NCBI GenBank assembly: GCA_029351405.1
Contig: GCA_029351405.1_4841.1
Length of the DNA: 64,000 nt
DNA from: Escherichia coli
GTDB lineage: Bacteria; Pseudomonadota; Gammaproteobacteria; Enterobacterales; Enterobacteriaceae
Reading direction: 5' to 3' (one strand)
Part shown: piece after piece, positions 20,318 to 62,491 of the stretch
Layout: every line of letters begins with the position of its first letter
How positions within the stretch are numbered: the stretch's first letter is position 1
Notes under the pieces: generated by a model
The model's database searches: none
What the model was told of the DNA's origin: nothing
The model's input: the letters and a program-made list of their open reading frames with translations, nothing else
Made by a program: the position numbers and the translations under genes

Positions 20318-20344
20318 TCGTTGTTCGCTAACGCTCACAACTCG
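20318..20344 (+). repeat. 27-nt conserved intergenic element, copy 1
   Basis: TCGTTGTTCGCTAACGCTCACAACTCG, followed by TATAAT; 126 nt upstream of the plus-strand gene at 20470. Confidence 0.5.
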
Positions 20345-20469
20345 TATAATACCACGCCGTTGTTCAACAAGAAAGCAGTTTTTATTCAACAGCAAAAATA
20401 ATTTATTTGGTCTAAACATGCACGCGAAATAATATGTATGTCATGTTAACCAACACACGAGAGTAATAT

Positions 20470-20814
20470 ATGAAACAGTTCGTAGGATTATACGCAGTTG
20501 GGTGTAGTAAGCCAGACGCCAACACCCCAGTTTATCTGACACAGCTGGCGTCAGACAAGAACTTACCATCGGAACCGCGATTTGTCCCCCTTGGCTTGAT
20601 GACAGGCCTGAAAGTTGGTCTGTATGTCGGCGTTGTGACGTTTGAAAACGGCATCGAAGCGAAGGTTCTGCCATTCAAATTGGGTAGTGAACAAATGCTG
20701 AAGGATACGATCAGTGAACACCTGAACTCACAATGTCTGGCTTCTCTGGATAAATTGTTCGGCGTAGTATCTGATGAAGGCGAGGCCACCCCCGCCTATG
20801 TGAATCAAGATTAA
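20470..20814 (+). CDS. hypothetical protein (114 aa), plus-strand
   Basis: ATG with GAGAG RBS after a 340-bp AT-rich intergenic region; convergent with the helicase gene. Confidence 0.5.
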   Translation: MKQFVGLYAVGCSKPDANTPVYLTQLASDKNLPSEPRFVPLGLMTGLKVGLYVGVVTFENGIEAKVLPFKLGSEQMLKDTISEHLNSQCLASLDKLFGVVSDEGEATPAYVNQD

Positions 20815-22319
20815 TCGTGATTACCCAGCGCCACCTTCATGAACTCCACAGGGTGGCGCTCTGCCAGGTAAAACTTGTAACGCTCATGAGAGTGCCTAAG
20901 AGCGTGGTTCGTGCTGGCGTTATACGATGCATCATCAACTAAGTCCCATATCCACGCAACGTCCTTAGAGGAGTGCTGACGCATCAGACGACCCAATGTC
21001 TGTATGACGCGGATATATGACTTGCTCGGGTGTGCCAGTACAAGGTGGTGCAGCTTCTTGATTGACACACCCTGCTGCATTGTTCCGTATGATGCTAACA
21101 GGGTGATGTCCTCTCCATCCTCCATCGCTTTCTGTATGCGACGGCGGTCTTCTATCTTCACTTCCCCGTTGATGACAAACACGTTGGGCTTGACTGCGCT
21201 CAGCATATCATACACGACCATCATGTGACCATCAATACGCTCGAACATGATGGCCACGTTTCCTTTCAGATTCAGTGCCATCTTGGCGATCAGTTCGTTG
21301 CGGGACTGGTGTGTAATAAGGTATTCTATTTCCTTGGAATAATCCCCGTCCAGACCAACGGCATCCGCCGGAGTGTGCTTCAGCTGAATCATCTTCACTT
21401 TGATGTCAGTGGCGTACCCGAGATTGATAAGGTCGCGAGCCGTGATGATCTTATGGTACGCCCCGAAGTGAGCCACCACCTGAAGCCCGGCAACTTTGGT
21501 GTTCGCCAGCGTACCTGTAACCCCCAGGCGCTGGTCGGCATAGATGCAGTTGTTTAGGATGTAAGACAGTTTATCAGACTTGGAGGTGTGCACTTCGTCC
21601 ACCACGATATCACCGAACTGGTGGAACCATTCCTTCGGCTGGTCTTGAATGCCTTGCCATGTACTGATGACGATTGGTTTGCTGATCTCCTTTGTCGCGC
21701 CCTCAAAAATCAGCTGGGTGTTAGCAACGGGCTTCCAATCACTGCCATGAGCATACTCTTCGAAGTTGTCGTACAGCTGAGTGACTAGGTGGATTGACGG
21801 CACCACGATAAGCGTCTTCAGAGGACTTTCGAGAGCTTCTCTGCGCCGCCTGTAGTACCGCGCCATGACATACAGAATAAAGGACTTACCGGCACTCGTA
21901 GCCAGTTCACAGACGCATCTGGTTTGACGCATAGCCTTGGCGATGGTGTCGTACTGGTAGTCACGAGTCTCGGCATCGATATATTCGTGATTTTCGGTGC
22001 GGATCTTTGGATGCAGACTGTCGATGAAGTCACGGATTTCTTCATCTGGGATTTCCTGAATGTACTTCAGTGTCGGATCCAGTTCAATTGTGTATCCGTT
22101 GTTCTTACAGAACTTAAATACCTCAAACAGCAGACCGATATCGATTAGACCAGATGACTTGGTAAATAGGCGGACAACCCCGTCCCATTTAGAGAAGGGG
22201 TTGGGAACGAAGTTCGGGTCTTCGAATTTGAAGTAATCATTAAGTTCTTCCCTGATAGAAAGATCTGCGATGCAACGCATGCGGACTTCGTTAACCTTAA
22301 CAATCTGAATGTCTGCCAT
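20811..22319 (-). CDS. UvsW-like SF2 DNA helicase
   Basis: ORF trimmed to ATG 22319 (GGGAG RBS); ATP-binding GKS loop, VVDEVH (DExH) box, C-terminal helicase motifs; late-promoter motif upstream. Confidence 0.75.
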   Translation of the reverse strand: MADIQIVKVNEVRMRCIADLSIREELNDYFKFEDPNFVPNPFSKWDGVVRLFTKSSGLIDIGLLFEVFKFCKNNGYTIELDPTLKYIQEIPDEEIRDFIDSLHPKIRTENHEYIDAETRDYQYDTIAKAMRQTRCVCELATSAGKSFILYVMARYYRRRREALESPLKTLIVVPSIHLVTQLYDNFEEYAHGSDWKPVANTQLIFEGATKEISKPIVISTWQGIQDQPKEWFHQFGDIVVDEVHTSKSDKLSYILNNCIYADQRLGVTGTLANTKVAGLQVVAHFGAYHKIITARDLINLGYATDIKVKMIQLKHTPADAVGLDGDYSKEIEYLITHQSRNELIAKMALNLKGNVAIMFERIDGHMMVVYDMLSAVKPNVFVINGEVKIEDRRRIQKAMEDGEDITLLASYGTMQQGVSIKKLHHLVLAHPSKSYIRVIQTLGRLMRQHSSKDVAWIWDLVDDASYNASTNHALRHSHERYKFYLAERHPVEFMKVALGNHD

Positions 22320-22340
22320 ACAAAATCTCCCAAGGATTAT

Positions 22341-22351
22341 GGGGTATTTAG
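22341..22351 (-). promoter_or_regulatory. late-promoter-like motif CTAAATAcccc
   Basis: Minus-strand CTAAATACCCC about 25 nt upstream of the UvsW-like start. Confidence 0.45.
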
Positions 22352-23094
22352 TGATCCGGCCAGACTCCGTTTTGTTCTTTATCCATGCGATGATACAGAC
22401 GAACACGCTCAAACATCTTTGTCAGAATGTCATCACGGTTGAACTCAATGATGGTTGGTAGAGGGGAAGACTCGTTGGCAATCACGTTGATGAGGCGGGT
22501 GATCTTGACACCGAACATCTGCTGGAACATGACCGAATATAAACACAGCTGGATACTGTAATCCTCGATCATGCCCCGCGTCTTCATAGTGTTCGATGTC
22601 TTGAAGTCGATGACAGCAGGTTTACCCTCATAAACCCCGATAAGGTCTACACGACCTGCAAGACCAAGCACCTCGCTATATAATGGGATCTCCTGAGCAT
22701 AGATCTTTGTCATCTTGTTCAGGTAAGGGAACAGCTGCTTGAACATGAACATGTATTCGCCAGCCGCTTCCAACACTTCTTTCATTGGGCGGTTCTTTAG
22801 ATACAGTTCACACGCAAGGTGCAGCTTCTCCCCTCGGTCAGCACAGCGCATGGTCTCAAGATCAGCGGCCTCTGCGCCCAGCTTCTTCCTCCAAGACTCA
22901 AGCCATTCATGATCTCCAGTGCGTCCCAGCATAGTCGTGACGGATGTCAGTTTAACACCAGACGGTGAAACGTAATGACGACCATTCTCCGTCGTAACAC
23001 ACTCCAGTTCCTTGTAAGGAAGTTCGTATTGCTGGAATGTGTAATGACGGTTTTCGAAGTCATTCAGCTTGCGTAGATCCTGGAGAGATGCCAT
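22348..23094 (-). CDS. PD-(D/E)XK (RecB/Cas4-like) nuclease
   Basis: 248 aa; GRVDLIGVYEGKPAVIDFKTS gives a D ... D-x-K catalytic arrangement. Confidence 0.55.
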   Translation of the reverse strand: MASLQDLRKLNDFENRHYTFQQYELPYKELECVTTENGRHYVSPSGVKLTSVTTMLGRTGDHEWLESWRKKLGAEAADLETMRCADRGEKLHLACELYLKNRPMKEVLEAAGEYMFMFKQLFPYLNKMTKIYAQEIPLYSEVLGLAGRVDLIGVYEGKPAVIDFKTSNTMKTRGMIEDYSIQLCLYSVMFQQMFGVKITRLINVIANESSPLPTIIEFNRDDILTKMFERVRLYHRMDKEQNGVWPDH

Positions 23095-23109
23095 TATGTG
23101 TGATCCTCG

Positions 23110-23562
23110 TTATACACCATCAATATATTTTCTCCACTCAATAGCATTTTTCACTTCGTATCCCAGTTTGTTCAGGCGATCCAAACAAGTCTCTATGAAC
23201 TTGACTTTTGCTTTTTGTTCTTGTAACAGAACAGACAACTCCACATAGTCATCGTCTGCTTTGACCCATGTATCCAGGTCAGACTTCAGGGGGCGAACCT
23301 TCAGGGGGCGCTCTGCGTAGATGTTAGGGGGTAACTCCCCTGCATAGTAGCGGCGCAGATAGAGATCGATCTGGCGGAAGCGTCCGTTGAGAAATTCAAG
23401 ATAACGCCCCTCGCGCAGATAATGCCGCTGTACAGCCATCCAAGAGCGCCCGATTTTCAGCGAGATCTGGTCAAGGTTCATGTCTTCTGGGTCCACTGTG
23501 ATCAGCGGCTCCAGTTCGTTCATGATGTCCTCGGTAGCCATTGTCTGTAGTTGTTCTTTCAT
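23110..23562 (-). CDS. UvsY-like recombination mediator (tentative)
   Basis: 150 aa, next to the UvsW-like gene as in T4; weak resemblance of the C-terminal helical region to UvsY. Confidence 0.4.
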   Translation of the reverse strand: MKEQLQTMATEDIMNELEPLITVDPEDMNLDQISLKIGRSWMAVQRHYLREGRYLEFLNGRFRQIDLYLRRYYAGELPPNIYAERPLKVRPLKSDLDTWVKADDDYVELSVLLQEQKAKVKFIETCLDRLNKLGYEVKNAIEWRKYIDGV

Positions 23563-23592
23563 AAAATATCCCAGCTTGTCAATGTCATAGAA

Positions 23593-24105
23593 TTATACCG
23601 CATTTCGTGGATTAGAATCAATCGCCTTCCCACCAGATAGTGGAACCAGCTGTTGGAACTTGAAGGTCACTGTCGTCACCAGCTGAGGTACAGCCGCGTC
23701 TACGTCCACCAGTACGTTGTCCAAAGCAGTCGGGCGGGCTTCCTCCAGCACGAGAGTGAGGCCAATCGGTCGGTTGAGGTTATCCAGCAATTCAATGGTA
23801 ATGTCCTTGCTGACAGGCAAATCCTTGCCGACGTTGCTGGTAATCCATTGGTGGATCTGTAACCATGATTTCCAGTCCTCGTCTATAACGAAAGTAAATA
23901 CGACGGGATCATAGGTTAAACGCTCTGAAGGTATAGAAACCAACACGTCACCAGGAGACGGACCATCGATGCCTTCGGAGTACACCCCTGGTATACTGAA
24001 GTCGTGGATGTTACGGGTTAGGAGTACAAGGTCTCCGATAGTCAGACGCCACTTATCGGACGCCGCGAAATTAGGGTTTTCGTTCTTAAATTGTACGTTG
24101 GACAT
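23593..24105 (-). CDS. hypothetical protein (170 aa; N-terminus uncertain)
   Basis: ATG 24105 with AAAGGTG RBS; the frame stays open upstream to 24408, so a longer form from ATG 24315/24318 is possible. Confidence 0.45.
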   Translation of the reverse strand: MSNVQFKNENPNFAASDKWRLTIGDLVLLTRNIHDFSIPGVYSEGIDGPSPGDVLVSIPSERLTYDPVVFTFVIDEDWKSWLQIHQWITSNVGKDLPVSKDITIELLDNLNRPIGLTLVLEEARPTALDNVLVDVDAAVPQLVTTVTFKFQQLVPLSGGKAIDSNPRNAV

Positions 24106-24304
24106 AATAGCACCTTTACTGTGGAGATATTTTGTGACCCTGATGCGCGGGATCAGTAGATTGTTGTTGGCATGCTCGATGCTCTTGTTTACGAGCTGTC
24201 GCATCTTTGTCACGCCAATAATTTCTGTTTCCGAACTCTGGAACCCAGAAGTGCGCACTGTACCTGTGACGTTGTCGGCCAGCGTTCCCACTTGTAACAA
24301 GGGT

Positions 24305-24784
24305 ATGCTGGACATCATCGTGCAAGAGTTCCAGCCCTTCCAGAAGCTCGTACCTTTAGGTTGCTTTGATGAGAACACGAGCACCCTCAAGCCATACTGG
24401 AAGACCACAATTCCTCTCCTGCGGCGTGGCGATGAAGGGAAGATTCCATACCTATCAGCAAGTATTTATTACTCTCAGAACAACAGCATCATTATCACCT
24501 TTAATCCATCATTCCATGCCAAGCTGAAGCAACACATAGTTGGGCGACTGGATACAACATCAGATATAATCGTGACGTTCAAGATCATGAATGACTCAGA
24601 TAAACCAGTACGAATCGCAACTCAGGGTGTGTTCGTTAACAACGACGCGGTTGGAAATGGGATGAGTATCTTTGAAGTTAACCCAGGGGGAACGATCTTG
24701 ATCAGACTGAGTAATGTGGGTGTGAACTCCCTGCTGTTGGATGGCATCGAACCAGTGGGAGTTCTTCCGGCGCGGGAGCACTGA
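24305..24784 (+). CDS. hypothetical plus-strand protein (start uncertain)
   Basis: Plus-strand frame open across 24106-24784 where no convincing minus gene exists beyond 24408; candidate ATGs at 24143, 24305 and 24581; C-terminal region looks protein-like. Confidence 0.3.
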   Translation: MLDIIVQEFQPFQKLVPLGCFDENTSTLKPYWKTTIPLLRRGDEGKIPYLSASIYYSQNNSIIITFNPSFHAKLKQHIVGRLDTTSDIIVTFKIMNDSDKPVRIATQGVFVNNDAVGNGMSIFEVNPGGTILIRLSNVGVNSLLLDGIEPVGVLPAREH

Positions 24785-25513: not shown

Positions 25514-25536
25514 AAGAAAATACCCCCATGGATGAT

Positions 25537-25549
25537 GGGGGGTATTTAG
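25537..25549 (-). promoter_or_regulatory. late-promoter-like motif CTAAATAcccccc
   Basis: Upstream of the 242-aa gene start at 25513. Confidence 0.45.
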
Positions 25550-25552
25550 GGA

Positions 25553-25723
25553 TCATGGTAGTTTGTAAACGAAGTTGGACCAGAACTTACGAACAAACTT
25601 CTTGACATAAACCATTCGGTTGGCGTATTCCCCATCCTTCAGGTCATTGTAGGTCTCGATCCCTACCGCGCCCAAGAAGTACGCCGTGAAGATATAGCAG
25701 AACAGATTGATGACGACAAACAT
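25553..25723 (-). CDS. small hydrophobic protein (56 aa)
   Basis: Not in the ORF track (under 60 aa); ATG 25723 with GGAG RBS; hydrophobic N-terminus MFVVINLFCYIFTAYFLGAV. Confidence 0.3.
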   Translation of the reverse strand: MFVVINLFCYIFTAYFLGAVGIETYNDLKDGEYANRMVYVKKFVRKFWSNFVYKLP

Positions 25724-25764
25724 GATGTATCTCCGCTGTGTGTACTCAAATTATTTATGATATG

Positions 25765-26187: not shown

Positions 26188-26191
26188 AGAA

Positions 26192-43222: not shown

Positions 43223-46200
43223 TTATGCCAGAGCAATCAAACGGAAATCTTTGAATGACGGCGGTGCTGTGCGGTTGCCTCTGACCAGCAGGCGGATCTT
43301 CAGACCAACGAAAGGATTGGTGCTGTCTACAGTCTTGTCATACTCATATTCGAAGAATGTAGAACCGTCATTGACCAGAGGGGATGTCGGTGTCACAGTT
43401 TCCCATGCCACATTATCCATCTCCTGGCCTGCGCGCAGCAGTTTAACCTGCACAGTCATTGAAGACTGAGAAGGTAGCATCGCGCCGAAGTATTGCTTCA
43501 GAGTGGTGCAAGGGTTATCGAATCCAATATCCTTGGTCACATAGCTGAACACATCTTCAAACGGATCCACACCGTAGGTGTTGAAGATGATAGTGAAATC
43601 ATCACCGTCGATCATTGGAGCCGTGTAGACATTACTCTCGTTGCGAGTCATGGTTGCACGAACCTGGAAGTCGCCCACCTGACGATAGATACCTTCCGTC
43701 GGCAGAGACACGTCTGTATCGGATTCGAACTCAACCCAATCAGAGAATGAGTTGGAGGTCGCATCGCGATAGCGGTATTCCAGTTTCAATACAGATCCTT
43801 CTAGAGCTGAATTGGTGACGCTTGCGTAGAACATGTCTACCAAGTAGTTGCCTAGGAAAGAAGCCGCTTCACCACCAATCTGACCGTCGGAGTCGGCGTT
43901 GGAACTCAGAACAAATTTGAACGTCGTGAACGTCGCATCAGTCACAGTGTGTCGAGCGTTCAGTTGCTCAGGAGTGAAACCACAACCACCCGTCAACCCA
44001 GACAGAGTAACACTTTCACCCGCAGTCAGGCCATGCCCCGGAGCGTACACAGTAACAGTTGAAGAACCGTTGACACATTTCACGGTGTTCAGACCCAGAG
44101 GGCGGATCTTCGGACCGACTTTAGCATCGAAGGTCACGATGTTTGAACCAGCGGAGAAGTTACAGCGATACACACGGAACTTCATATCGGCAGTCTGGTT
44201 TGGAGTCCAGGTCGTACCATTTGAAGATGTGAAGAACACGCCAGTGTACGGCTGTTTGGCAATGAACTCGTTGGTCAGCAAGTTCTTCTTACCCATCTCT
44301 GCGATGTATGCGTTGTAGTCCTGAGTGTTGGCCAAGAGAACAATCGCGAACTCAGTCTGCGCCTGCAGATACACAGGATAATCAAACTTGAACATCGTCG
44401 GCACAGAAGAGTCTGTGGAGATGGAAACTTCTGATGGATTCAGAGTCTTACGAGTGACGACAGTCGTCGCTGGCAGACCATTGCTCATCTCGCGGATTTC
44501 CAGAGTGATCGGGATATCACGGGACTTGGTAGAGAAGAACACTTCGATGCCTTCGATGTATTCGCCGCCGATATTGGTGGCAACCATGAAGGACTGGGCG
44601 ATAGGATCTTTCCACTTCGCGACTTCAACCGTCTCTGTTTTGTTTTCAGTAGACTTGGTCGCAGTGTATCCCAGGACGCGAGTGTTGACATAAGTCTTCT
44701 GGATGCCCTGTTTCTTGCCGAAGGACTTATGAACAGCCTCAGCATTGGTCAGGGTATCATCAGCAGACTTGCTGTCCACAGGACTGTCAGTCAGACGGAA
44801 GACGTTGTCACCCGTGTTAAACTTGATAGTCTCGTTCTGGGGAACCGCAAACACACCTTTGATGTTACCGTTGGCATCAGTGTTCAACGCACCACCCAGT
44901 ACACCACCGTTTGGGGTACAGTACGCGCTCACATCACGCCCAGAGAAGAACGGATACACACGAGTGAACGGACGCAGGCCTGTGGCTTCGAAGTTGATGT
45001 TCGTTTTGCGCATGTATGGGATTACCTGCGTTTCAACGATCTGCTCACCAGTCAGGGTAGTGGTCGTCCTGTCGGTGTACGTGTACGTGGTAATGTCACG
45101 GGTGGACACAGTCGTGCGGTAGCGGTAGCCCCACCATACACCACCCGCACCATGCGGTTCCCACACACGCTCAGACACGGACACAGTACGCCATGTGCCA
45201 TACACAGAACCTTCTTTGATCGCACCACGGGTGTTGATCGTTTCGTTGATCACACGTGGAGTAACATAGTAGTTCTCAAACCAGTAATCAGTAGTTGGGT
45301 TCAGTTTCAGGAATCCTTCCCAGTTGAACACCGCATACGGGTTCACGTTGATGGTCGTGGTTGCATAGTCCTGGCGGACAGAGATCTCACGGGTGTAGTT
45401 GCATACAACCATGCCATCCTGAACGTTGTTCCAACCGACTGGCGTCAGGTCAATCGCGTTCTGCTGAACAAACGGGCGTAGGCGACCATTGTCAGTGTCG
45501 ATTGAGCCCACCCAGTCTGCAGACAAATCGTCGATCAGACGGAAGTCTTTGAATGGGTCTGCTGCGATACCGTTCTTGAAGCGCGGGTTGCCAGTAATTG
45601 GATCGAACACCTGTTGTGTCATCGCCGAGGATTCCAGCTGAGACAGTGAGGTGTAATATTCGACATTGGAGATACGGGTCTCCAGTTTACCGATATCGCG
45701 CATCGTGTAGCGGCGGTTGTCGATAGTGCGAATCTGGATGTCGTCAATGTTGGCCGTGTATGGTGGGATCATCAATTCATACAGGCGCATGCCGTTGTCT
45801 GGGATCGCAGGGGAAGCCAGGTTGTTGGAACTCACACCACGAGCAACGTTGAACACACCGTTGTCTGCCAGATACACAGCATCAATACGAGGCAGATAGT
45901 ACTCTGCATCTAGGATGATCGCGGTGTTCGGGCGAACCATGTCCGTGTCAGACGCTCCGCTGGTGATCTTAGGACGGAAGTCCAGGCTGTCGGCCAACCC
46001 ATACACAGTACCAGAACTGGATGAAACATAGTTCGGGATGTCTGGGTAGTTGATGGACGAATAGGAGTCCGCTGTGAAGAAATCACCAGAGCTGTGAGCG
46101 AAATACTGATACACCACCGTGAACGTCCCTGAAATGGCTCCAGTGGACGATATGAGGTTAGAAAGGTAGTATGCCGCATCGCGTTGACCGCCGTCCAGAG

Positions 46201-55437: not shown

Positions 55438-58434
55438 TTACAAATTACCACCAGATACCCATGTACCTGGGGTTCCTGCTACAGTACATATCCACTCTTT
55501 GGGACTACCTACAGCTGGTGAACTGTTAATGCATTTTGCACCACGAGGCCAGGTCAATGTGGTTGGTGCTGCGGTATCATATAGAACCGGTAGTGCACTA
55601 CCTTGTTTCACCAAGCTACCAAGCCATGCAGGAACAGTCGCAACGTCCCACCTGTTACCAGACATTTGCAGTGCACCTACACCATCGCCGTACATGCGAA
55701 TTGCCTCACTGGTTGTATTAAAGCTGCGGCAGTCTCTAATGGTTAAGCTCTGGTTATTCCACGAGATATTACGTGCGAAGCCCTGGAAAGTGACGTTGGT
55801 AATAGCGCAAGCAGCAGTAACCGTAATTGCATAATCACTGGTGCCAGTACCTGCATGAACAGCATCGATACCCTCGTACTTAGCAACACCTATCGAGCCG
55901 CCGGACGCGTCAGTTATCGTCGAAGAGTATGTTGCGCAGTTTCTGAAAATAGTGTTATTCGCAGAGTTACCGAACGCATGAGTAACGTTGTTAATACTCA
56001 CATTTTCAACAATAATATTATCGCCATTACTGCACTGAATAGCTCGTGAGTCATAAATATCCCCATATTTTGTCAGGCTCCCGCCATTAAAGTGGCATCT
56101 TTGACCCTGAAGAGCGACCATAGGACTACCGCTGAAAGATTGATTCCATCGGTGTACATGGCAGTTTGTCAACTCGATGCCAAGCAAATTACCAGAATCG
56201 TTGTATACATAGATATCTATCTTCTGATTATCACCAGCAATGTGGTCAATAATGTGAATGTATCTTGTCGGAGCATCATCACCGCTCTGAGAGTAAACGC
56301 GAATACCATATTCGCTGTTGCCGAATGTCTGGTTTCCTTTGAAGATTGTGCCGGTGCTCTTCCAGATAATGCAACCACGGCCTGTTGCGTTTATCTCTGT
56401 ATCACTCAGGTATCCGTTGGAATTGCTGATTGAATTGATAACTTCATTGAATGTTCCGTAACGGTCTTCAAGCCCCATACCCCAGTTATTTTCAGATATG
56501 CAATCCTGAATCTTGCAACGAGTGCAATTGATCATCTGAATGCCTGAGCCAGGCACCTTTCTGACGGTCATTCCTATAACAGAGCTATGGGAGGTATCAG
56601 CAACTAACACAGCAGACACTACACTGCTTGCTCCAGCCCTGATACCTGTTCCAACGATATTACCACCACGCGCCTGTGTATTCGAACCACGGATAGCGAA
56701 AATATAGTTCGACAATGTAGTACCCTGAATCAGCCTTGCCGCGCCAAAGTCAATACGGCGGGCTTCATGCGCCGTGATTGTTGCGTCCAGCAGGTAATCA
56801 CCATCAGGGAAACTAATTCGTTTAGCTGCTGCGAATGCAGCGTTAATGGCAGAGGAACATGGCGTAACGCCGTCCGGTACTGCACCTGCCATTAACGGAT
56901 TTACAGTGTCAGCATTAATACGAATCCATGCCGCTCCCCCAGGAGTCTTGAATACAGTAACGCCGTTGTCGGTGTAAGAGCTACCGTCGAGCACTGCTCG
57001 TAACTGCCCGCCACCGTATCGTGTGCCGGAACTGTACTCGCGCAGTGTTATGCGCTGTTTATCAAATGACGGCTCTATGTTCCTCAGCGCGGTTACGGTC
57101 AATGCCTCCCCGAGTAATTTATCTCCGTCTTGCGCGGCTAAATCAGAGCGTAGTACATCAGTGTATTCATTTGATACAGGCAACAAACTAACAACAACAC
57201 CTCCAGGCGCATATGTCAGGGTGCTTCCGCTCACAGATACGATGGACGCGCCTGTTGGGATACCAGAAGGCAGACCCCAGATCTTCTGTGCAACGACATC
57301 ATAGATAACCGTCTTTCCGTCCAGTTTGGTGATGGTATCGGACGACAAAATAACCTGAGAATTCGGCACGTTCACGGAACGCGCCACTTCGTTTGGTGTA
57401 CGGTCGATCTGATTGTACAGTGTTGGGTCGCCATTGATGACGACAACAACTTCATCACCAGCTTCGAGTTCGTCGGCCAGCGTGATGATCTTCGTAACGG
57501 AGTCATAAGTGAAGCCCAGGCCTTTCTGCTGGCGGGATCCATCGATAAAGATCTCAGAAACATCTTCGGCATCCACGTCCAACTCGATCTCAGTTTCACC
57601 GCCCGCAGCTGATCCGCTATTGTATATCCAAGTGATAACCGTACCGCCGCCGGAACCACCGGAGCCATCGCCCAACTGGATCGGGACATATTGGATGACC
57701 TGCAGCTCGGAACCTGATGGGATTGATGGACTGAAGTCGACATTGTAACCATTGAGGGAATACTTTGACTCCAGCAGGCGCTTCCCGTCAACATACACAT
57801 CAACAATGGACGGCTGTGTGGTGAGAGTTACCTGAGCTGTGTCTGATGCAACTGTCTCAGTGAAGATGGTACGACTGTAAACGCGCCCCTGGCCAAGACC
57901 GACACCAGCAGTCACAATCCAACCACGCGCGTCTCCAGACCAGGTAAAGGTCGCAGATACACTATCTGTGGAGAGAGTCATAGGCTCTACAGAGCCGTAC
58001 ATTGGGCGTCCGTTTGGATCGATGGTCAGAGGATACAGTGAGAACTTTCCATACAAGTCACAGACTGTAACAGAATCGCCAATGCGCGTAGGGGAAGGGA
58101 ACACCACCGTAGAGACGCCTGTGGAGTTGTCTACCAGATAGCCTCGCCCTTCAGTGAGCGTTGCCGTAGAGGCATGCGGAAGGGCTTCCCAGCGGATACC
58201 ACCGCCACCCAGTGGCAACCAACCACCATTTTCGTAATAACCTTCGAATTCGTCGGAGTCGGCATTGTAGCGAACGGAAGACGGGAGCCCTGCGCTGGCA
58301 TTACCCTCGGGTAAAGTCAGGACAGCATCTGGTCCATGCTCAATCGTACCCGTGTTGAGGATACCAGCCAAAGTAGACTGCTCTTCAGCCGCCAGACCGA
58401 GAGGGAAAACAGGCTGTGTTGGTTTATTAGCCAT
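55438..58434 (-). CDS. tailspike protein (about 1000 aa) with conserved N-terminal anchor region
   Basis: ATG 58434 (MANKPTQPVFPLGLAAEE...); Gly-rich linker GDGSGGSGGG; long beta-helix-like C-terminal part; late-promoter motif upstream. Confidence 0.75.
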   Translation of the reverse strand: MANKPTQPVFPLGLAAEEQSTLAGILNTGTIEHGPDAVLTLPEGNASAGLPSSVRYNADSDEFEGYYENGGWLPLGGGGIRWEALPHASTATLTEGRGYLVDNSTGVSTVVFPSPTRIGDSVTVCDLYGKFSLYPLTIDPNGRPMYGSVEPMTLSTDSVSATFTWSGDARGWIVTAGVGLGQGRVYSRTIFTETVASDTAQVTLTTQPSIVDVYVDGKRLLESKYSLNGYNVDFSPSIPSGSELQVIQYVPIQLGDGSGGSGGGTVITWIYNSGSAAGGETEIELDVDAEDVSEIFIDGSRQQKGLGFTYDSVTKIITLADELEAGDEVVVVINGDPTLYNQIDRTPNEVARSVNVPNSQVILSSDTITKLDGKTVIYDVVAQKIWGLPSGIPTGASIVSVSGSTLTYAPGGVVVSLLPVSNEYTDVLRSDLAAQDGDKLLGEALTVTALRNIEPSFDKQRITLREYSSGTRYGGGQLRAVLDGSSYTDNGVTVFKTPGGAAWIRINADTVNPLMAGAVPDGVTPCSSAINAAFAAAKRISFPDGDYLLDATITAHEARRIDFGAARLIQGTTLSNYIFAIRGSNTQARGGNIVGTGIRAGASSVVSAVLVADTSHSSVIGMTVRKVPGSGIQMINCTRCKIQDCISENNWGMGLEDRYGTFNEVINSISNSNGYLSDTEINATGRGCIIWKSTGTIFKGNQTFGNSEYGIRVYSQSGDDAPTRYIHIIDHIAGDNQKIDIYVYNDSGNLLGIELTNCHVHRWNQSFSGSPMVALQGQRCHFNGGSLTKYGDIYDSRAIQCSNGDNIIVENVSINNVTHAFGNSANNTIFRNCATYSSTITDASGGSIGVAKYEGIDAVHAGTGTSDYAITVTAACAITNVTFQGFARNISWNNQSLTIRDCRSFNTTSEAIRMYGDGVGALQMSGNRWDVATVPAWLGSLVKQGSALPVLYDTAAPTTLTWPRGAKCINSSPAVGSPKEWICTVAGTPGTWVSGGNL

Positions 58435-58467
58435 TTCAAATACCCCTAAATGTGTTCGTTTCATCTA

Positions 58468-58478
58468 GGGGTATTTAG
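58468..58478 (-). promoter_or_regulatory. late-promoter-like motif CTAAATACCCC
   Basis: Upstream of the tailspike gene starting at 58434. Confidence 0.5.
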
Positions 58479-58480
58479 TT

Positions 58481-59671
58481 TTAGAAAGAAGCTACAATAG
58501 AATAATCGACCGAACAAGCAGTTGTTGTATTCGCATTAACAACGGAAATTCTCAATTTACCACCCACCACAGAACCTGTGAACGTCACTGTACCGCTCGT
58601 ACTTTTCTGAACCAACAACTCCGATTTGATAGTTCCGTCGCGAGTTATGGTTACTCGATATGTATCAACAACGTTACCTGTTCCCCATTGCGCGGTCACC
58701 AGTATTTGACAAAGGTTCACCAAATCAAAATCTGGAAGAGCCGTCGTCCCAGAAGCCGAAACCGTGTAAGAAGACAAATTCGTTTTGGTACGATAAACGG
58801 CGTTCCCTAAACTATTGTCGACAGAGGCCATCTTGGCATTATACGTTGATACACTAACTTTATCACTGGAAAGAGAACTGATGCTGTTATCCAGAGATGC
58901 CATCTTCGTGTTGTACGTGCTAACCTCGACTTTATTACCCAGAGACGTATTGATATTGGAGATACTCAAATCCAATGACGTCATCTTCGTGTTGTAAGTC
59001 GATGTGTTGACTTTCCCGTTCAACGACGTGTTGATGCTATTAATCTGGGACTCTAGACTCAGCATATCTGCGTCATACGCTGTCGTTGTCACATATCCAT
59101 TAAATCGGTTATCTGCAAACAACGCATCAAAAAATGCAGTCATTGTCCAATAACGCGCTCCAGAATCTGTTTGTACTGGAATTGAAGTCGGCAGCGTTGA
59201 TCCGGTATACGCAGACAATCTGGTGAAGTCCAAATTGAATTTGTAATATCCGGATGACAACAACTCCCCAGCCAAACCAGAACCAGGTGGGGTAGTGTCT
59301 TCACTGACACCATGCTTTCTCAACATGCTCAGGTTAACACCATCTGTCGCTACTATAGGCTCATCCGCGATAGACAGTTTCTTTCCAGCCGGAACAGTCA
59401 GGCCGCCGTTGGCTGTCAACAACGCAGCAAAAGTCTTGTTCCCGTTGATAATTTGTTCACCACCGTCGGTGCGGATCACTTTGTTTTCCAGTGTGTCGTA
59501 GATATTATCCACAGAACGCTTCAGCTCATACGTCAAATGAGCTGACGGAGGGAACAACGAATCATCAACAGCGAAATCGTTGATAACATCAGTCTTGCTT
59601 ATTTTATCGTCAACAGAAGAAAGGATTGCATCAATCTGCTGACCTGTGTATTGACTCAGAAAATCGGCCAT
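58481..59671 (-). CDS. tail fibre-like protein with tandem 22-aa repeats
   Basis: 396 aa; three or four tandem copies of ...KV.VSTYNTKM.SLD.SIS...; AAGGAG RBS. Confidence 0.55.
   Translation of the reverse strand: MADFLSQYTGQQIDAILSSVDDKISKTDVINDFAVDDSLFPPSAHLTYELKRSVDNIYDTLENKVIRTDGGEQIINGNKTFAALLTANGGLTVPAGKKLSIADEPIVATDGVNLSMLRKHGVSEDTTPPGSGLAGELLSSGYYKFNLDFTRLSAYTGSTLPTSIPVQTDSGARYWTMTAFFDALFADNRFNGYVTTTAYDADMLSLESQINSINTSLNGKVNTSTYNTKMTSLDLSISNINTSLGNKVEVSTYNTKMASLDNSISSLSSDKVSVSTYNAKMASVDNSLGNAVYRTKTNLSSYTVSASGTTALPDFDLVNLCQILVTAQWGTGNVVDTYRVTITRDGTIKSELLVQKSTSGTVTFTGSVVGGKLRISVVNANTTTACSVDYSIVASF
58802..59065 (-). repeat. tandem in-frame coding repeats (about 66 bp units) inside the fibre gene
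   Basis: Protein repeats ...VSTYNTKMTSLD... three to four times; the DNA shows matching periodicity. Confidence 0.6.
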
Positions 59672-59673
59672 TT

Positions 59674-60528
59674 TTAACTCCTTGAACTTTCTAGGAATAC
59701 AGTAAACCCAGCAGGATGGAAGTGCTGACGGAAGACGCGATCAAACACACCTTCAAAATCAGATACGTTGCCAGGAACTCTTATCACATACGTGAATTCA
59801 TCATAGTAGTAATCGTCACGCATTCCTGTCGCGCCGTCACATTCAAAGTTGTCGTCCAGGCCACCAATTTCTTCCTTGGGATAATACACACTCACTGGGC
59901 AACCAAAGTAAATCCAGAAGAACAATTCAATCGCTTTCTTCGTCCCGCGAATGCGATAAATGTGTTTAAGTAACTTCAACCAGCGTACATGGTCCAGTGT
60001 CCGGCGTTCAGTTCCCTCGACATACACAGAGAGAGTGTCTCCGTCTGAAGTCACCAAACTGTCCGAACCAACTGGCACAAACTTCCCGAACTCCAGGAAG
60101 GACTTATCAACCGTTCTCTGGAATCCAAAATCAGCATACCAATCGTCGATGCGTTCGTTCTTGTCTTCCATTGAGATTAATGGCCGACCGTCCACGTCCA
60201 GCAAATCTTCGAAGTCTAGCGCCATCATGTTCTCAAACGTGCGCGTCAGGAACTTGTCTTCCAAGAAGTCTTTGGCCTCAGTACCTGGCGTCTTGCGCTT
60301 CTTGATGTCAATCAACTGCTCAATAGGAGACTGATCCGTATTTGGGTTCACCCAACCACCAGTGTCTGCCAGATACGCCAAGATCTCCTCTTCGGTGAAT
60401 CCCTGCTGGCGATACAACCAGTTGAAGAACGTATCCATAAACTCGATGAATACTGGGAATTCATTCTGGTAAAACAATGGGGTTTCATATTTCACCCCAT
60501 TGTGTCCGTTATTAAGATCTTTGGACAT
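59674..60528 (-). CDS. baseplate-associated protein (tentative)
   Basis: 284 aa; GGAGGTG RBS; translationally coupled between the gp6-like gene and the fibre gene. Confidence 0.45.
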   Translation of the reverse strand: MSKDLNNGHNGVKYETPLFYQNEFPVFIEFMDTFFNWLYRQQGFTEEEILAYLADTGGWVNPNTDQSPIEQLIDIKKRKTPGTEAKDFLEDKFLTRTFENMMALDFEDLLDVDGRPLISMEDKNERIDDWYADFGFQRTVDKSFLEFGKFVPVGSDSLVTSDGDTLSVYVEGTERRTLDHVRWLKLLKHIYRIRGTKKAIELFFWIYFGCPVSVYYPKEEIGGLDDNFECDGATGMRDDYYYDEFTYVIRVPGNVSDFEGVFDRVFRQHFHPAGFTVFLESSRS

Positions 60529-62290
60529 AACGCACCTCCGGCTCCACAGTTACAGCACCGATGCGGAGCACCTGATTCTGTGTGGCCTGAATGTTCTGGT
60601 CAAGACCGTCTGGAGACACAATTATTGTCACACCCTCAGTGTTGTAGTTGGATACTATGATACGCTGGAGTTCAACAACGCCAGTCACATAATCAACCGT
60701 TCCAACAGCTTGTACCAGATATTCCTTGGTCGTGTCTGTTGTACTCACCTTGTACATATTCAGGACACCACTGACGTCGCGTATGTAGTAAGTGAATTCG
60801 ACCTCGGCCGGAAGCGGCTTAAACCCACTGATACGCACAGAACCAGACGCAATTGAGCGCCCATAATCGAATGTGAAGCTGTCCAGCACCCCATAGTCTG
60901 GCTTGAAATGGCGCTTATACTTCACAGAAGTGATGTTTGACACTATCGATCTGTCCATGTCGGTGATGGCCGACTGTAACTGCTCTTTATCGAACAGTTC
61001 GTCGAATCCTTCTAGATTCCCCAAACCCCAGTTGACAACACCGTTCTTCACGACTGTCTTCAACTGCTCTTCGGTATAGGACGTGGAAGTCGGATCCCAG
61101 AACACGCGGGTGGTGACATCAACATAAGTCAGTTCAGCGTCGACAATCTTGGGTGTGATCGTGCCCACATTGTACTTGTCCAACTTCGACACGATATCTG
61201 CCTTCTCAGCGTCCGAGAGCGCCTCACCAACAGAAGGTATCACAGCAATGTAAACGTATCCGGAGTCGGGCGGAGAGAGCGTGTCGCCGCCATATGCTTT
61301 GGCGCGGGAGACGTTGGAGAACAGACGCTCGGTCAACACAGCATAATCGACTTCGGCTACCGCCGCACCCTCAGTCTGATAAGCCAGCGGAGCAAGGCGC
61401 TTGATGTCCTCAATGCTCTCTGGGTCCTTACCACCGGAAGAACGTTCTGACACCAGCTCAACATCTACAAGGTTGAATCCCCCGATGGAAGACGCGGAGG
61501 ACAAGGCGGTAATATCATTGCCGTCTGCACCAGCTGTCTCCAGATACTGGAGATACACGACGTTCCCGTCTTCTACTCGCTTACAGATATACCCATCACC
61601 GAATTCGAACGTGTACATCCCGTCCAACCCCAGCTCAACGAAGTAAAGTTGCGCATACTGGCTCAAATCGAACGGGCTGACGTATCGTGAGAAGGTAGAC
61701 CGCACGTCAGATGTCTCAGATTCCTGTACCTGTACCACCATATGGTCGATGTCCACGGAAGAAGATGGTATCACATAGGTAGAGATCGCGCTGCCTTCCA
61801 CATCATAGGACTTGTACAGCCAGTTACCCTGTATGAGTTTGATGTTCTCGAACTTGTAAGAGCCGTCTACAAGAGAGGCACTCACAGGTTGGTCAACCGT
61901 GAAGTTATAGGATTTGCCATCCTTCACCCCAATGAACATCGCGCGGCGATCCATTACAATCGTGTCTGGAGCCGTGCTGGCGTCATATGGAGTGACTGTG
62001 ACGTTTGCGTACAGGTACGCTGCCTGGTAGTTGTGAGGGGTGTAAGATAAGAACCCCGCCGCCAGACCGACATTAGAACGCTGTTGAGCAGAGTGAAGAT
62101 GGCTTTCGCCATTCAGCATATTCTGCATGAACCCGATAGAGTTGGCATCCGAGGCCAAGATACGCACGATTGCACTGAGACCAGAACCTTCAAAGTCATA
62201 ATCCTTGAAAGTTGGATCAGCTTTCATGCGCTTCTTGATAAGATACTCGAAAGCCCTGACATCGAGTGAAGGGACTGTTTGCGTGGCCAT
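60512..62290 (-). CDS. baseplate wedge protein (gp6/J-like, tentative)
   Basis: ORF trimmed to ATG 62290 with GGAG RBS; about 590 aa; late-promoter motif upstream; first gene of the minus-strand structural block. Confidence 0.5.
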   Translation of the reverse strand: MATQTVPSLDVRAFEYLIKKRMKADPTFKDYDFEGSGLSAIVRILASDANSIGFMQNMLNGESHLHSAQQRSNVGLAAGFLSYTPHNYQAAYLYANVTVTPYDASTAPDTIVMDRRAMFIGVKDGKSYNFTVDQPVSASLVDGSYKFENIKLIQGNWLYKSYDVEGSAISTYVIPSSSVDIDHMVVQVQESETSDVRSTFSRYVSPFDLSQYAQLYFVELGLDGMYTFEFGDGYICKRVEDGNVVYLQYLETAGADGNDITALSSASSIGGFNLVDVELVSERSSGGKDPESIEDIKRLAPLAYQTEGAAVAEVDYAVLTERLFSNVSRAKAYGGDTLSPPDSGYVYIAVIPSVGEALSDAEKADIVSKLDKYNVGTITPKIVDAELTYVDVTTRVFWDPTSTSYTEEQLKTVVKNGVVNWGLGNLEGFDELFDKEQLQSAITDMDRSIVSNITSVKYKRHFKPDYGVLDSFTFDYGRSIASGSVRISGFKPLPAEVEFTYYIRDVSGVLNMYKVSTTDTTKEYLVQAVGTVDYVTGVVELQRIIVSNYNTEGVTIIVSPDGLDQNIQATQNQVLRIGAVTVEPEVRYVQRS

Positions 62291-62329
62291 GATAATCTCC
62301 ATCACCTGAGTTTGAATATGGTGTTGAAG

Positions 62330-62337
62330 ATATTTAG
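62330..62337 (-). promoter_or_regulatory. late-promoter-like motif CTAAATAT
   Basis: About 45 nt upstream of the gp6-like start at 62290. Confidence 0.45.
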
Positions 62338-62464
62338 CCAACGGGAATCAAAACGCTCGCGCGCGTTTAATTTATTCGAATATAACTCGCGAGGGGGCTG
62401 ACGCCCTCGCTCGTAACACCGCCCTATGCGGGCAGCACCATTCCACAGCCATGGAGGCTGCTTC

Positions 62465-62491
62465 TCGTTGTTCGTTAACACTCACAACTCG
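62465..62491 (+). repeat. 27-nt conserved intergenic element, copy 2
   Basis: TCGTTGTTCGTTAACACTCACAACTCG (2 mismatches to copy 1); 165 nt upstream of the plus-strand gene at 62656. Confidence 0.5.

What the first reader, a model, noticed from the sequence alone, without database searches (positions are those of the whole stretch)
20318..62491. 27-nt element conserved upstream of both plus-strand transcription units
TCGTTGTTCG(C/T)TAAC(G/A)CTCACAACTCG occurs at 20318-20344 and 62465-62491, in each case 125-165 nt upstream of the first plus-strand gene in long AT-rich spacers that also carry stable hairpins. It is a candidate operator or promoter-associated site for the few rightward early transcripts.
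Basis: seen in the sequence. Interest (0 to 1): 0.4.

Follow-up and report, generated by a model that had tools for sequence, protein, structure and literature searches.

The report
Conserved G·A-mismatch hairpin module, Ackermannviridae
The repeated 27-mer is real and is the core of a conserved, strand-specific stem-loop that sits in a promoter–hairpins–AT-rich module found three times per genome in ViI-like (Ackermannviridae) phages; it looks more like a replication-origin or leader-RNA signal pointing leftward than like an operator for the rightward genes.

Summary
Observation confirmed: a 28-nt element (26/28 identical) lies at 20317-20344 and 62464-62491, with none expected by chance. The window is an Ackermannviridae phage, and the element is conserved family-wide at the same two loci. 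It is not a sequence-specific duplex operator. Across six genera the stems change completely but stay complementary (99% of cells pair). Matching insertions occur on both arms, and stems differ between the two sites within one genome. Two 2x2 internal loops are invariant: TC/TC on the plus strand, which is tandem G·A on the minus strand. All single-sided changes are G·T on the minus strand, and the minus strand folds about 5 kcal/mol better. Each copy is part of a ~250-nt module (minus sense): A-tract, -35/-10-like signal, long hairpin, short hairpin C-GA-GC-loop-GC-GA-G (core GCGAAGC/GCGTAGC, the 'mini-hairpin DNA' motif), AT-rich tract, CGCGCG box, late promoter, operon. A third module without the long hairpin lies outside the window. 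Function is unproven. My best guess (~0.35) is a T4 oriF/oriG-like transcript-primed origin whose displaced strand folds into G·A hairpins. The main rival (~0.3) is a structured leader or small RNA.

The parts
20317..20344 (-). Long two-tier hairpin, site 1. Minus strand reads C|GA|GTTGT|GA|GC-GTTA-GC|GA|ACAAC|GA|G; the apex is GCGTTAGC.
   Evidence: The covariance model scores it 51.1 bits. As RNA the minus strand folds at -11.2 kcal/mol (z -3.95) and the plus strand at -6.1.
62464..62491 (-). Long two-tier hairpin, site 2. Minus strand reads C|GA|GTTGT|GA|GT-GTTA-AC|GA|ACAAC|GA|G.
   Evidence: The model scores it 50.9 bits. The two differences from site 1 are one compensatory pair change (C-G to U-A).
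20293..20305 (-). Short hairpin, site 1. Minus strand reads T|GA|GC-GAA-GC|GA|A, with core GCGAAGC. It has the same frame as the upper tier of the long hairpin.
   Evidence: (weak model hit to model positions 8-25). The core is GCGAAGC or GCGTAGC in all 12 unexpanded copies at sites 1 and 2 across genera.
62386..62413 (-). Expanded version of the short hairpin, site 2: C|GA|GCGAGGG-loop-CCCTCGC|GA|G. It is followed on the minus strand by a U-rich stretch and is terminator-like.
   Evidence: Other genera have the 13-nt form CGAGCG(A/T)AGCGAG at this position.
62446..62460 (-). Accessory hairpin CAGCC-N5-GGCTG between the long and short hairpins. It is present at enteric-phage site 2 and at site 3.
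   Evidence: It shows compensatory changes relative to site 3 (ATGCC..GGCAT).
62421..62433 (-). Accessory hairpin GCCC-N5-GGGC.
   Evidence: It covaries across genera: GCCC/GGGC, GCCT/AGGC and GTCT/AGAC.
20346..20384 (-). Leftward promoter-like signal, site 1. Minus sense: TAAAAA (20384-20379), N4, TTTCTT (20374-20369), N17, TATTAT (20351-20346), then 1 nt, then the hairpin.
   Evidence: The geometry is conserved in 5 genera. The composite pattern has 4 hits in the whole RPN242 genome, 3 of them at the modules, against 0.23 expected. No transcription start has been mapped.
62506..62544 (-). Leftward promoter-like signal, site 2. Minus sense: TAAAAA (62544-62539), N4, TTTTCT (62534-62529), N17, TATCCT (62511-62506), then 14 nt, then the hairpin.
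   Evidence: In other genera the -10-like hexamer varies as TATCTT, TATGCT, TATCGT, TACAGT and TACACT, always keeping T-A...T.
20236..20292 (-). AT-rich tract following the short hairpin (80% A+T in the first 40 nt). It ends in the hairpin ATAAATGCC-GAAG-GGCATTTAT (20256-20236).
   Evidence: Composition and position are conserved across genera, but sequence and length are not. The terminal hairpin is absent in Taipeivirus, Miltonvirus and Nezavisimistyvirus.
62366..62385 (-). AT-rich tract following the expanded short hairpin at site 2.
62351..62368 (.). CGCGCG box (minus-sense consensus AACGCGCGAG), here inside the hairpin AAACGC-N6-GCGTTT. The diverged site 1 counterpart lies at 20220-20229.
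   Evidence: It is present at both sites in all genera examined.
62332..62338 (-). Late-promoter motif CTAAATA in front of the baseplate-wedge gene (ATG at 62290). The gp45 counterparts are at about 20176-20187 and 20140-20152.
   Evidence: (C)ACTAAATA recurs directly upstream of structural genes in the window. The AG3 paper also predicts a late promoter for gp6 (PMC3121705).
20470..20814 (+). Neighbouring + ORF (114 aa, phrog_4255, unknown function). It is not shown to be part of the element.
62656..63225 (+). Neighbouring + ORF (189 aa, phrog_3788, unknown function). It is not shown to be part of the element.

Best explanation
Shown: the 28-mer is a strand-specific stem-loop. It consists of a closing pair, a 2x2 loop, a 5-8 bp stem, a second 2x2 loop, a 2-bp stem and a 3-4 nt loop. 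Its two internal loops are invariant and read as tandem G·A on the minus strand. It is the most conserved piece of a ~250-nt module. In minus sense the module runs: A-tract, -35/-10-like signal, long hairpin, short hairpin of the same frame, AT-rich tract of variable sequence, CGCGCG box, late promoter, operon. The module occurs three times per genome and always points toward the downstream operon (gp45/clamp-loader/regA replication genes; baseplate-wedge and tail-fibre genes; baseplate hub). The long hairpin is present at two of the three.

Inferred, as the most likely mechanism: each module works like a T4 oriF/oriG-type origin. A host-RNA-polymerase transcript starts at the module's leftward promoter and forms a persistent RNA-DNA hybrid over the hairpin and AT-rich region. 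The displaced non-template (minus) DNA strand folds into compact G·A-stabilised hairpins of the 'mini-hairpin DNA' type seen at primase entry sites of ssDNA phages. These hairpins resist single-strand binding protein, keep the bubble open and mark where the T4-like helicase/primase is loaded. The AT-rich tract serves as the unwinding element. The steps from 'transcript' onward are inference.
For: Structure. The count of structure pairs on the Infernal alignment gives 92% paired and a covariation score of 0.354, against 0.20±0.03 in shuffles (0/500 reach it) and <=0.09 when partners are slid. The hand-registered count gives 112/113 stem cells paired on the minus strand, with the upper GA/GA loop in 13/13 copies and the lower in 12/12 of the CGAG-type copies. 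Stems are entirely different in Serratia 3M and Erwinia phiEa2809 site 2, and matching insertions occur on both arms in KNP4 and phiEa2809 site 1.

Strand. There are 5 G·T wobbles on the minus strand and 0 on the plus strand. The minus strand folds 5-6 kcal/mol better.

DNA rather than RNA. (a) The short hairpin core is GCGAAGC or GCGTAGC in 12/12 copies at sites 1-2. The long apex is GCGTTAGC (window), GCGTCAGC (phiEa2809) and GCGGAGC (KNP4). GCGNAGC/GCGNNAGC is the mini-hairpin DNA motif: Tm 76.5 C as DNA and 39 C as RNA, poor SSB binding, and found at the G4 and St-1/alpha3 (GCGTTAGC) primase sites, in RSF1010 ssiA and in N4 promoters (PMC13037366). (b) At site 1 the -10-like hexamer ends 1 nt before the hairpin in five genera, and the lower stem covaries into it (A..T vs T..A). 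An RNA started there could not contain the whole hairpin, but the non-template DNA strand can.

Origin-like anatomy. T4 oriF/oriG consist of a promoter with a sigma70-type -10 plus a downstream A+T-rich unwinding element. A persistent R-loop forms, the non-template strand is single-stranded, and the primosome gains access to it (PMC3016281). Here the tract after the short hairpin is 55-90% A+T, with conserved composition but not conserved sequence or length. The phage has the full T4-type replisome, including UvsW, RNase H, helicase loader and primase.

Copy number and position. There are 2 full and 1 partial module per genome. Site 2 lies at the main strand-divergence point, within 0.7 kb of the cumulative GC-skew minimum. 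The promoter-like composite occurs almost only at the modules: 3 of 4 genome hits, against 0.23 expected.
Against: There are no experimental data on transcription starts, R-loops or replication initiation for any member of this family.

The GC-skew extremum is confounded with the change in gene orientation.

The -35-like hexamers are weak (2-4 of 6), and the generic sigma70 scan did not call these promoters.

The GNA/GNNA apex is not universal: GCTTTGC in Kuttervirus/Taipeivirus site 1, GCAAAGC in 3M, and TTCA/AAA loops at site 3. The mini-hairpin DNA argument is therefore suggestive only.

G·U wobbles, covarying accessory hairpins and a position downstream of a promoter are equally what a functional RNA would show. 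Tandem G·A in a C-GA-G context is also stable in RNA.

T4 origins contain no such hairpins. In T4 the unwinding element can be replaced by heterologous sequence, so strong conservation of a specific hairpin frame is not predicted by the T4 model alone.

Nearest-neighbour DNA folding gives only -3 to -4.5 kcal/mol.
Confidence: 0.35

Rival explanations
1. The hairpins act as RNA. The leftward promoter makes a structured leader or a ~110-150 nt small RNA containing the long hairpin, any accessory hairpins and the short hairpin. The tandem-G·A loops are a binding surface for RNA polymerase or a phage protein. Two possible roles follow. One is processive antitermination, like HK022 put or lambda nut, letting early transcription read through the following terminator-like hairpins into the gp45 replication operon and the baseplate operons. 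The other is control of RNA stability or processing.
For: The promoter-like signal is conserved immediately upstream in the same sense at all three modules. At sites 2 and 3 the predicted start lies 7-20 nt before the first hairpin. Single-sided changes are G·U on this strand. The RNA folds are -51 kcal/mol (z -3.3) for 62500-62375 and -33 kcal/mol (z -3.95) for 20346-20225. The accessory hairpins covary. Terminator-like hairpins follow in several genera. The family lacks MotA/AsiA, and anti-termination has been proposed for its delayed-early genes (PMC3184105). The copy number and the two-hairpin layout recall putL/putR.
Against: At site 1 the -10-like hexamer ends 1 nt before the hairpin in five genera, and the covarying lower stem includes it. 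A transcript from that promoter would therefore lack the 5' arm. The 13-nt short hairpin has no predicted stability as RNA (0 kcal/mol), although it is invariant in frame. No consistent terminator follows at site 1 in Taipeivirus, Miltonvirus or Nezavisimistyvirus. The AU-rich tract is conserved only in composition. There is no Rfam match, even at E<=1.
Confidence: 0.3
2. One reading: a duplex operator or promoter-associated site, bound by a dimeric protein, that controls the rightward + strand ORFs.
For: The element has dyad symmetry, lies upstream of a + ORF at both sites, has two copies only and sits in intergenic DNA. The phage encodes an HU-like DNA-binding protein (window 1982-2260).
Against: Half-site sequences differ between sites 1 and 2 within one genome and are completely replaced in other genera, while complementarity is kept. 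Insertions occur symmetrically in both arms. The invariant positions are exactly the non-complementary TC/TC dinucleotides. There is a strand asymmetry (5 G·T vs 0). The element lies 63 bp upstream of the best + strand -35 at site 1. Neither adjacent ORF product has a recognisable DNA-binding fold.
Confidence: 0.05
3. An N4-like single-stranded hairpin promoter. The minus strand is the template, its hairpin is recognised by a polymerase, and transcription runs rightward into the + ORFs and the tRNA/early arm.
For: The short hairpin is effectively a 5-'pair' stem with a 3-nt GAA/GTA loop. The KNP4 long apex GCGGAGC equals the N4 promoter mini-hairpin quoted in PMC13037366. The structure is on the strand that would be the template for rightward RNA.
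Against: No single-subunit or virion RNA polymerase is annotated among the 197 features of RPN242. The only giant virion ORF in the window (1612 aa) is a DUF4815/phage-spike tail protein. At site 3 the module faces the same way as its downstream genes and has no opposite-strand ORF. The + ORFs start 125-165 nt away and have their own sigma70-like signals.
Confidence: 0.04
4. A non-functional repeat: a remnant of a duplication, gene conversion or a small mobile element (MITE-like).
For: The flanking module is homologous at three loci, so duplication did occur at some time.
Against: The element is kept at the same loci in 270+ genomes of at least six genera. Compensatory changes, invariant loops and fixed spacing persist while the surrounding intergenic sequence diverges. 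There are no terminal repeats, no target duplications and no extra copies.
Confidence: 0.03

Closest known systems
Phage T4 oriF(uvsY) / oriG(34) R-loop origins
   Same: Both have a promoter with a sigma70-type -10 followed by an A+T-rich tract, in a phage with the same replisome (gp43/45/44-62/41/61/59/32, UvsW, RNase H). Both occur a few times per genome, with one copy feeding replication/recombination genes and another lying in front of late tail genes. In both, the non-template strand is expected to be single-stranded (PMC3016281).
   Different: T4 origins use a MotA box, have no conserved hairpins, and their unwinding element is sequence-independent. Here a specific two-hairpin frame lies between the promoter and the AT tract, and the upstream motif (TAAAAACTNCTTTYCT) is unrelated to a MotA box. 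Origin activity is untested.
Primase / single-strand initiation hairpins of G4, St-1, alpha3 and RSF1010 ssiA ('mini-hairpin DNA', GCGNAGC/GCGNNAGC)
   Same: The apices match on the minus strand: GCGTTAGC (identical to St-1/alpha3), GCGTCAGC, GCGGAGC, and GCGAAGC/GCGTAGC in every short hairpin at sites 1-2. Both use sheared G·A pairs, and both have two or more neighbouring hairpins on one strand (PMC13037366).
   Different: Those elements act on permanently single-stranded genomes or at plasmid oriV, with DnaG or RepB' primase. Here the genome is duplex and T4-like. The extra tandem-GA internal loops are not part of the known motif, and several copies have non-GNA loops (TTT, AAA, TTCA).
HK022 put / lambda nut antitermination RNAs
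   Same: Both comprise two conserved stem-loops just downstream of early promoters, occur a few times per genome, and lie ahead of terminator-like hairpins and long operons.
   Different: There is no sequence or Rfam similarity. At site 1 the hairpin overlaps the predicted start. There is no evidence for antitermination.
Phage N4 early promoters (template-strand hairpins read by virion RNAP)
   Same: Both are small hairpins with 3-nt purine-rich loops that occur 2-3 times per genome and are strand-specific.
   Different: No vRNAP homologue is present. The orientation relative to downstream genes argues against this mechanism.

Membership tests
T4 oriF/oriG-type R-loop origin | A promoter with a sigma70-type -10 that fires early or middle | tested here: inconclusive
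   A TAnnnT hexamer lies 17 nt after a TTTYYW hexamer and an A-tract, conserved in 14 site/genus combinations and at site 3. The -35 is weak and no transcription start has been mapped.
T4 oriF/oriG-type R-loop origin | [quoted passage not shown] | tested here: met
   The 40 nt after the short hairpin are 55-90% A+T, with conserved composition but variable sequence and length. Both modules are among the 4 most AT-rich 120-nt windows of the genome.
T4 oriF/oriG-type R-loop origin | A MotA box at -30 | tested here: not met
   The upstream motif is TAAAAACTNCTTTYCT. The family has no MotA/AsiA homologues according to PMC3184105.
T4 oriF/oriG-type R-loop origin | A persistent R-loop and autonomous replication of origin plasmids in infected cells | not testable with these tools
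   This needs wet-lab assays.
Mini-hairpin DNA (GCGNAGC / GCGNNAGC) | The sequence motif with a C-G closed GNA or GNNA loop | tested here: inconclusive
   Met in 12/12 unexpanded short hairpins at sites 1-2 and in RPN242 site 3. Met in 3/13 long apices strictly, and in 10/13 if T-A is allowed for the closing pair. Not met in CBA120/May site 1 (GCTTTGC), 3M site 2 (GCAAAGC), Det7 site 3 (GCTTCAGC) and T765 site 3 (GCAAAGC).
Mini-hairpin DNA (GCGNAGC / GCGNNAGC) | Forms in single-stranded DNA in vivo | not testable with these tools
   Nearest-neighbour DNA parameters do not model it (PMC13037366 says the same).
put / nut-type antitermination RNA | The element lies wholly within the transcript of an upstream early promoter | tested here: inconclusive
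   Compatible at sites 2 and 3 (hairpins start 14-20 nt after the -10-like hexamer). Not compatible at site 1, where only 1 nt separates them and the lower stem overlaps the hexamer.
put / nut-type antitermination RNA | Similarity to known put/boxB models | tested here: not met
   No Rfam family matches at gathering score or at E<=1.
Palindromic duplex operator | The same half-site sequence at all sites bound by one protein in a genome | tested here: not met
   phiEa2809 has GTTGTG.. at site 1 and GTTATTTC.. at site 2. Miltonvirus has GTTGTTGT.. and GTAGTTC... The invariant bases are the unpaired GA/GA.
N4-type hairpin promoter | A virion-packaged T7-like RNA polymerase encoded by the phage | tested here: not met
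   None is annotated in RPN242. The 1612-aa ORF is DUF4815/phage spike.
Intrinsic terminator | A G+C-rich stem directly followed by a U tract | tested here: not met
   No T run follows the 28-mer on either strand.

The most novel reading that the evidence does not exclude
The modules are a previously unrecognised kind of phage origin or enhancer. An early transcript forms an R-loop whose displaced strand is locked open by tandem-G·A DNA hairpins. The resulting primer-template junction starts replication. It also serves as the dedicated loading site for the gp45 sliding clamp, which then tracks into the late promoter lying 60-150 bp downstream of every module. This would physically couple origin firing to activation of the adjacent late operons.
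Probability: 0.08. Interest if true: 0.85.

Novelty: new variant of a known kind. Interest (0 to 1): 0.55.

Why it matters
Ackermannviridae (ViI, CBA120, Det7, LIMEstone, Klebsiella Taipeiviruses) are widely used therapeutic and biocontrol phages. Their early promoters, middle-gene control and replication origins are all unknown; the CBA120 genome paper states that early promoters could not be identified. This analysis pins down three short loci per genome that carry the family's most conserved non-coding signal. It defines their structure and strand, and it gives a covariance model and explicit mutations (GA/GA to Watson-Crick, arm swaps, inversion) with which origin function and RNA function can be separated experimentally. 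If the DNA-hairpin reading holds, it would link the mini-hairpin DNA motif of ssDNA-phage primase sites to a large duplex T4-like genome.

Tried and rejected
1. A loose IMG/VR scan (CGTTGT-N12-ACAACTCG) returned mostly chance hits. L022 and L076 looked like covarying variants but lie inside a repetitive ORF of an unrelated AT-rich virus and were discarded. L031 is a true phiEa2809-like orthologue.

2. A genome-wide family of TC/TC hairpins was rejected: 49 loose hits against about 36 in shuffles. The strict two-tier descriptor gives only the two sites plus chance-level coding hits.

3. Extension of ungapped similarity beyond 28 nt was not found. The wider homology became visible only after comparing genera.

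4. gp45-based searches of viral and metagenome contigs found no element next to distant gp45 genes (marine T4-likes, Vibrio phages, 130-kb ERZ contigs). It appears limited to the enterobacterial Ackermannviridae genera.

5. Rfam gave nothing.

6. The neighbouring + ORFs were tested as candidate binding or initiator proteins. They are not paralogues, have no Pfam or PDB sequence hits, and fold searches were uninformative.

7. The N4-like vRNAP idea was checked and rejected.

8. The generic sigma70/terminator scans did not call the leftward promoter. It rests on conservation and geometry only.

9. GC skew fits an origin at site 2 but is confounded by gene orientation.

10. MAFFT and Infernal both mis-register the two longest-stem copies, so the final pair count was done on a hand-registered alignment.

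Full report
**1. Observation.** The motif is present exactly where stated. With up to three mismatches it has two matches in the window and none in 100 dinucleotide-preserving shuffles. Local alignment adds one 5' base, giving a 28-mer at 20317-20344 and 62464-62491 with 26/28 identity and no further ungapped similarity. The two differing positions (12 and 17) face each other across a dyad: C·G in one copy and T·A in the other.

**2. Context.** The window is an Ackermannviridae myophage, closest to Escherichia phages A221 and RPN242. Almost all genes from 135 to about 62300 are on the minus strand.
- Site 1 lies between the sliding-clamp gene gp45 (19459-20127, minus) and a 114-aa + ORF, which is followed by uvsW.
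- Site 2 lies between the baseplate-wedge gene and a 189-aa + ORF, which is followed by tRNAs.
- In the complete RPN242 genome, site 2 sits at the main divergence point between a + arm (133.1 kb across the record ends to 24.0 kb) and a minus arm. Site 1 lies inside the minus arm.
- A 39-nt query hits 274 phage records at 503 places, about two per genome, in Kuttervirus, Taipeivirus, Agtrevirus and Limestonevirus.

**3. It is a hairpin, not a duplex half-site pair.** I fetched orthologous intergenic regions through the neighbouring proteins rather than through the motif. They show the following, written for the + strand:
- Kuttervirus, Taipeivirus and Limestonevirus site 1: GTTGC..ACAAC.
- CBA120 and May: a 3-nt loop (GC-AAA-GC).
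- Limestonevirus and Agtrevirus site 2: the outer C-G replaced by T-A.
- phiEa2809 site 1: one extra pair.
- Serratia KNP4: three extra positions on both arms.
- Serratia 3M site 2 (GCAGTTC..GAACTAC) and phiEa2809 site 2 (GTCATTTC..GAAATAAC): entirely different stems that are still complementary.

Within one genome the two sites have different stems, so a single sequence-reading dimer is not a plausible explanation.

A covariance model built from 13 distinct copies finds exactly two strong hits in the whole RPN242 genome. On its alignment, 92% of cells pair. The covariation score is 0.354, against 0.20±0.03 in shuffles (0/500 reach it) and <=0.09 with slid partners. Two long-stem copies are mis-registered there. 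On a hand-registered alignment, 112 of 113 stem cells pair.

**4. Strand.** The invariant non-complementary dinucleotides are TC/TC on the + strand, which is 5'-GA-3'/5'-GA-3' (tandem G·A) on the minus strand. The upper loop is GA/GA in 13/13 copies and the lower in 12/13. All five single-sided departures are G·T on the minus strand and C·A on the plus strand. These represent four or five independent events, so the evidence is suggestive (p about 0.03-0.06) rather than conclusive. As RNA the minus strand folds at -11.2 and -9.1 kcal/mol, and the plus strand at -6.1 and -3.5.

**5. The element is the core of a larger module.** Read in minus sense and anchored on the hairpin, all 14 site/genus combinations share the following order:
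- TAAAAA, N4, a TTTCTT/TTTTCT/TTTTCA/TTGGAC hexamer, N17, a TAnnnT hexamer;
- then 1 nt (site 1) or 14-20 nt (site 2) before the long hairpin;
- then 8-21 nt, or about 50 nt carrying two further covarying hairpins at enteric site 2;
- then a 13-nt short hairpin C|GA|GC-loop-GC|GA|G. This is at 20293-20305 in the window; at 62386-62413 the 2-bp stem is expanded to 7 bp;
- then a tract of 55-90% A+T whose sequence and length are not conserved;
- then an AACGCGCGAG box;
- then the family's late-promoter motif (C)ACTAAATA, defined from structural-gene upstream regions;
- then the operon.

The covariance model itself weakly recognises the short hairpins as the upper tier of the long one. The loose TC/TC hairpin class is not enriched genome-wide.

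**6. A third module.** Following up the unexplained '2 places per record', I found that window 62407-62458 matches RPN242 45,089-45,140 on the other strand. That locus lies upstream of the + strand baseplate-hub gene. It has the same promoter-like geometry (TTTTCA-N17-TACAGT), both accessory hairpins (one with compensatory changes), the short GCGAAGC hairpin, an AT-rich tract and a late promoter. It has no long hairpin. It is conserved in 272 records. In Det7 and T765 the GA frame is kept but the loop differs (TTCA, AAA). All three modules point toward their downstream operon. The composite promoter-like pattern has four hits in the genome, three of them the modules, against 0.23 expected.

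**7. RNA or DNA?** Three points favour DNA:
- The short hairpin core is GCGAAGC or GCGTAGC in all 12 unexpanded copies at sites 1-2, and several long apices are GCGTTAGC, GCGTCAGC or GCGGAGC. GCGNAGC/GCGNNAGC is the 'mini-hairpin DNA' motif. It is extraordinarily stable as DNA but not as RNA, binds SSB poorly, and is found at the primase start sites of G4 and St-1/alpha3 (GCGTTAGC), in RSF1010 ssiA and in N4 promoters (PMC13037366).
- As RNA the short hairpin has no predicted stability.
- At site 1 the -10-like hexamer ends 1 nt before the hairpin in five genera, and the lower stem covaries into it. A transcript from that signal cannot contain the full hairpin, but the non-template DNA strand can.

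Other points favour RNA or are neutral:
- The hairpins lie downstream of a promoter-like signal.
- G·U wobbles occur on the transcribed-sense strand.
- The accessory hairpins covary.
- Terminator-like hairpins follow in some genera.
- The minus-strand RNA folds are stable.
- Not all loops are GNA/GNNA.

**8. Mechanism.** T4 oriF and oriG consist of a promoter with a sigma70-type -10 and a downstream A+T-rich unwinding element. The transcript forms a persistent R-loop, the non-template strand is single-stranded, and the primosome is thought to enter there (PMC3016281). The modules have that anatomy plus hairpins on what would be the displaced strand. The phage has the complete T4-type replication set. 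I therefore favour an origin-like role at about 0.35, with the hairpins holding the displaced strand open and marking primosome entry. A structured leader or small RNA, put/nut-like or otherwise, is nearly as likely at about 0.3. A duplex operator, an N4-type promoter and a functionless repeat are each unlikely, for the reasons given under the rival explanations. Nothing beyond the structure, strand preference, copy number and module anatomy is shown. Transcription, R-loop formation and initiation are inference.

**10. Novelty.** Genome papers on CBA120, AG3 and LIMEstone report only generic sigma70 and late-promoter searches and state that early promoters are unidentified. Neither the motif strings nor any transcript or origin mapping for the family was found in the searchable literature. 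Rfam has no matching family. The element therefore appears undescribed. Its parts (promoter plus unwinding element, G·A mini-hairpins) belong to known kinds, so I rate it a new variant of a known kind.

Noticed in passing
L154 (RPN242, OL656110) 45,030-45,210, outside the window: A third copy of the module sits upstream of the + strand baseplate-hub/tail-lysozyme gene, in the opposite genomic orientation. It has the promoter-like signal, two accessory hairpins, the short GCGAAGC hairpin, an AT tract, a further covarying hairpin (GGAAGC..GCTTCC vs GGATGC..GCATCC) and a late promoter, but no long hairpin. It is conserved in 272 phage records.
   Followed up: partly
window 31022-30978, 37303-37252, 53256-53193, 55437-55360, 48505-48062, 62338-62332, 20152-20140 (minus sense): A recurring (C)ACTAAATA motif lies directly upstream of structural genes. 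It is the likely late-promoter consensus of this family (compare T4 TATAAATA).
   Followed up: partly
window 35355-35223, 26713-26513, 7878-7757 (minus sense): A second recurring signal, GGGTTTACTTCTTCAATAA..N..TATAAT (TTTACT-N16/17-TATAAT/TATACT/TATTAT), often sits right after strong terminators (AACCCCGCTTCGGCGGGGTT). It is a candidate early or middle promoter class.
   Followed up: no
window 1982-2260 (-): A 92-aa HU/IHF-family DNA-binding protein (PF00216, E 6e-30) is encoded by a phage whose DNA is expected to carry hypermodified thymidine (an aGPT-pyrophosphorylase is annotated in RPN242). This recalls SPO1 TF1. HU-type proteins prefer distorted DNA, so it is a conceivable partner of the hairpins. 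Untested.
   Followed up: no
window 62351-62368 and 20220-20229; all genera: A conserved alternating CGCGCG box (AACGCGCGAG) bounds the AT-rich tract of every module. Its alternating purine-pyrimidine sequence could be Z-DNA-prone, or it could form a small hairpin. No explanation yet.
   Followed up: no
L022 11787-11812 and L076 7604-7629: An unrelated AT-rich (giant-virus-like) contig carries CGTTGTTCACTGACGTTCACAACTCG inside a repetitive ORF. It mimics the element, including a complementary centre. I judged it coincidental.
   Followed up: partly
RPN242 26,924 (+) and 16,318 (+): One extra strict GAGCGAGAGCGA hit lies inside the DNA-ligase region, and one extra hit of the promoter-like composite lies at 16,318. 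Neither was examined, and both are probably chance.
   Followed up: no
[not shown]
   Followed up: partly
window vs RPN242: RPN242 carries homing-endonuclease genes (for example gp141 and gp149 GIY-YIG) that shift coordinates relative to the window. The window phage lacks some of these insertions.
   Followed up: no
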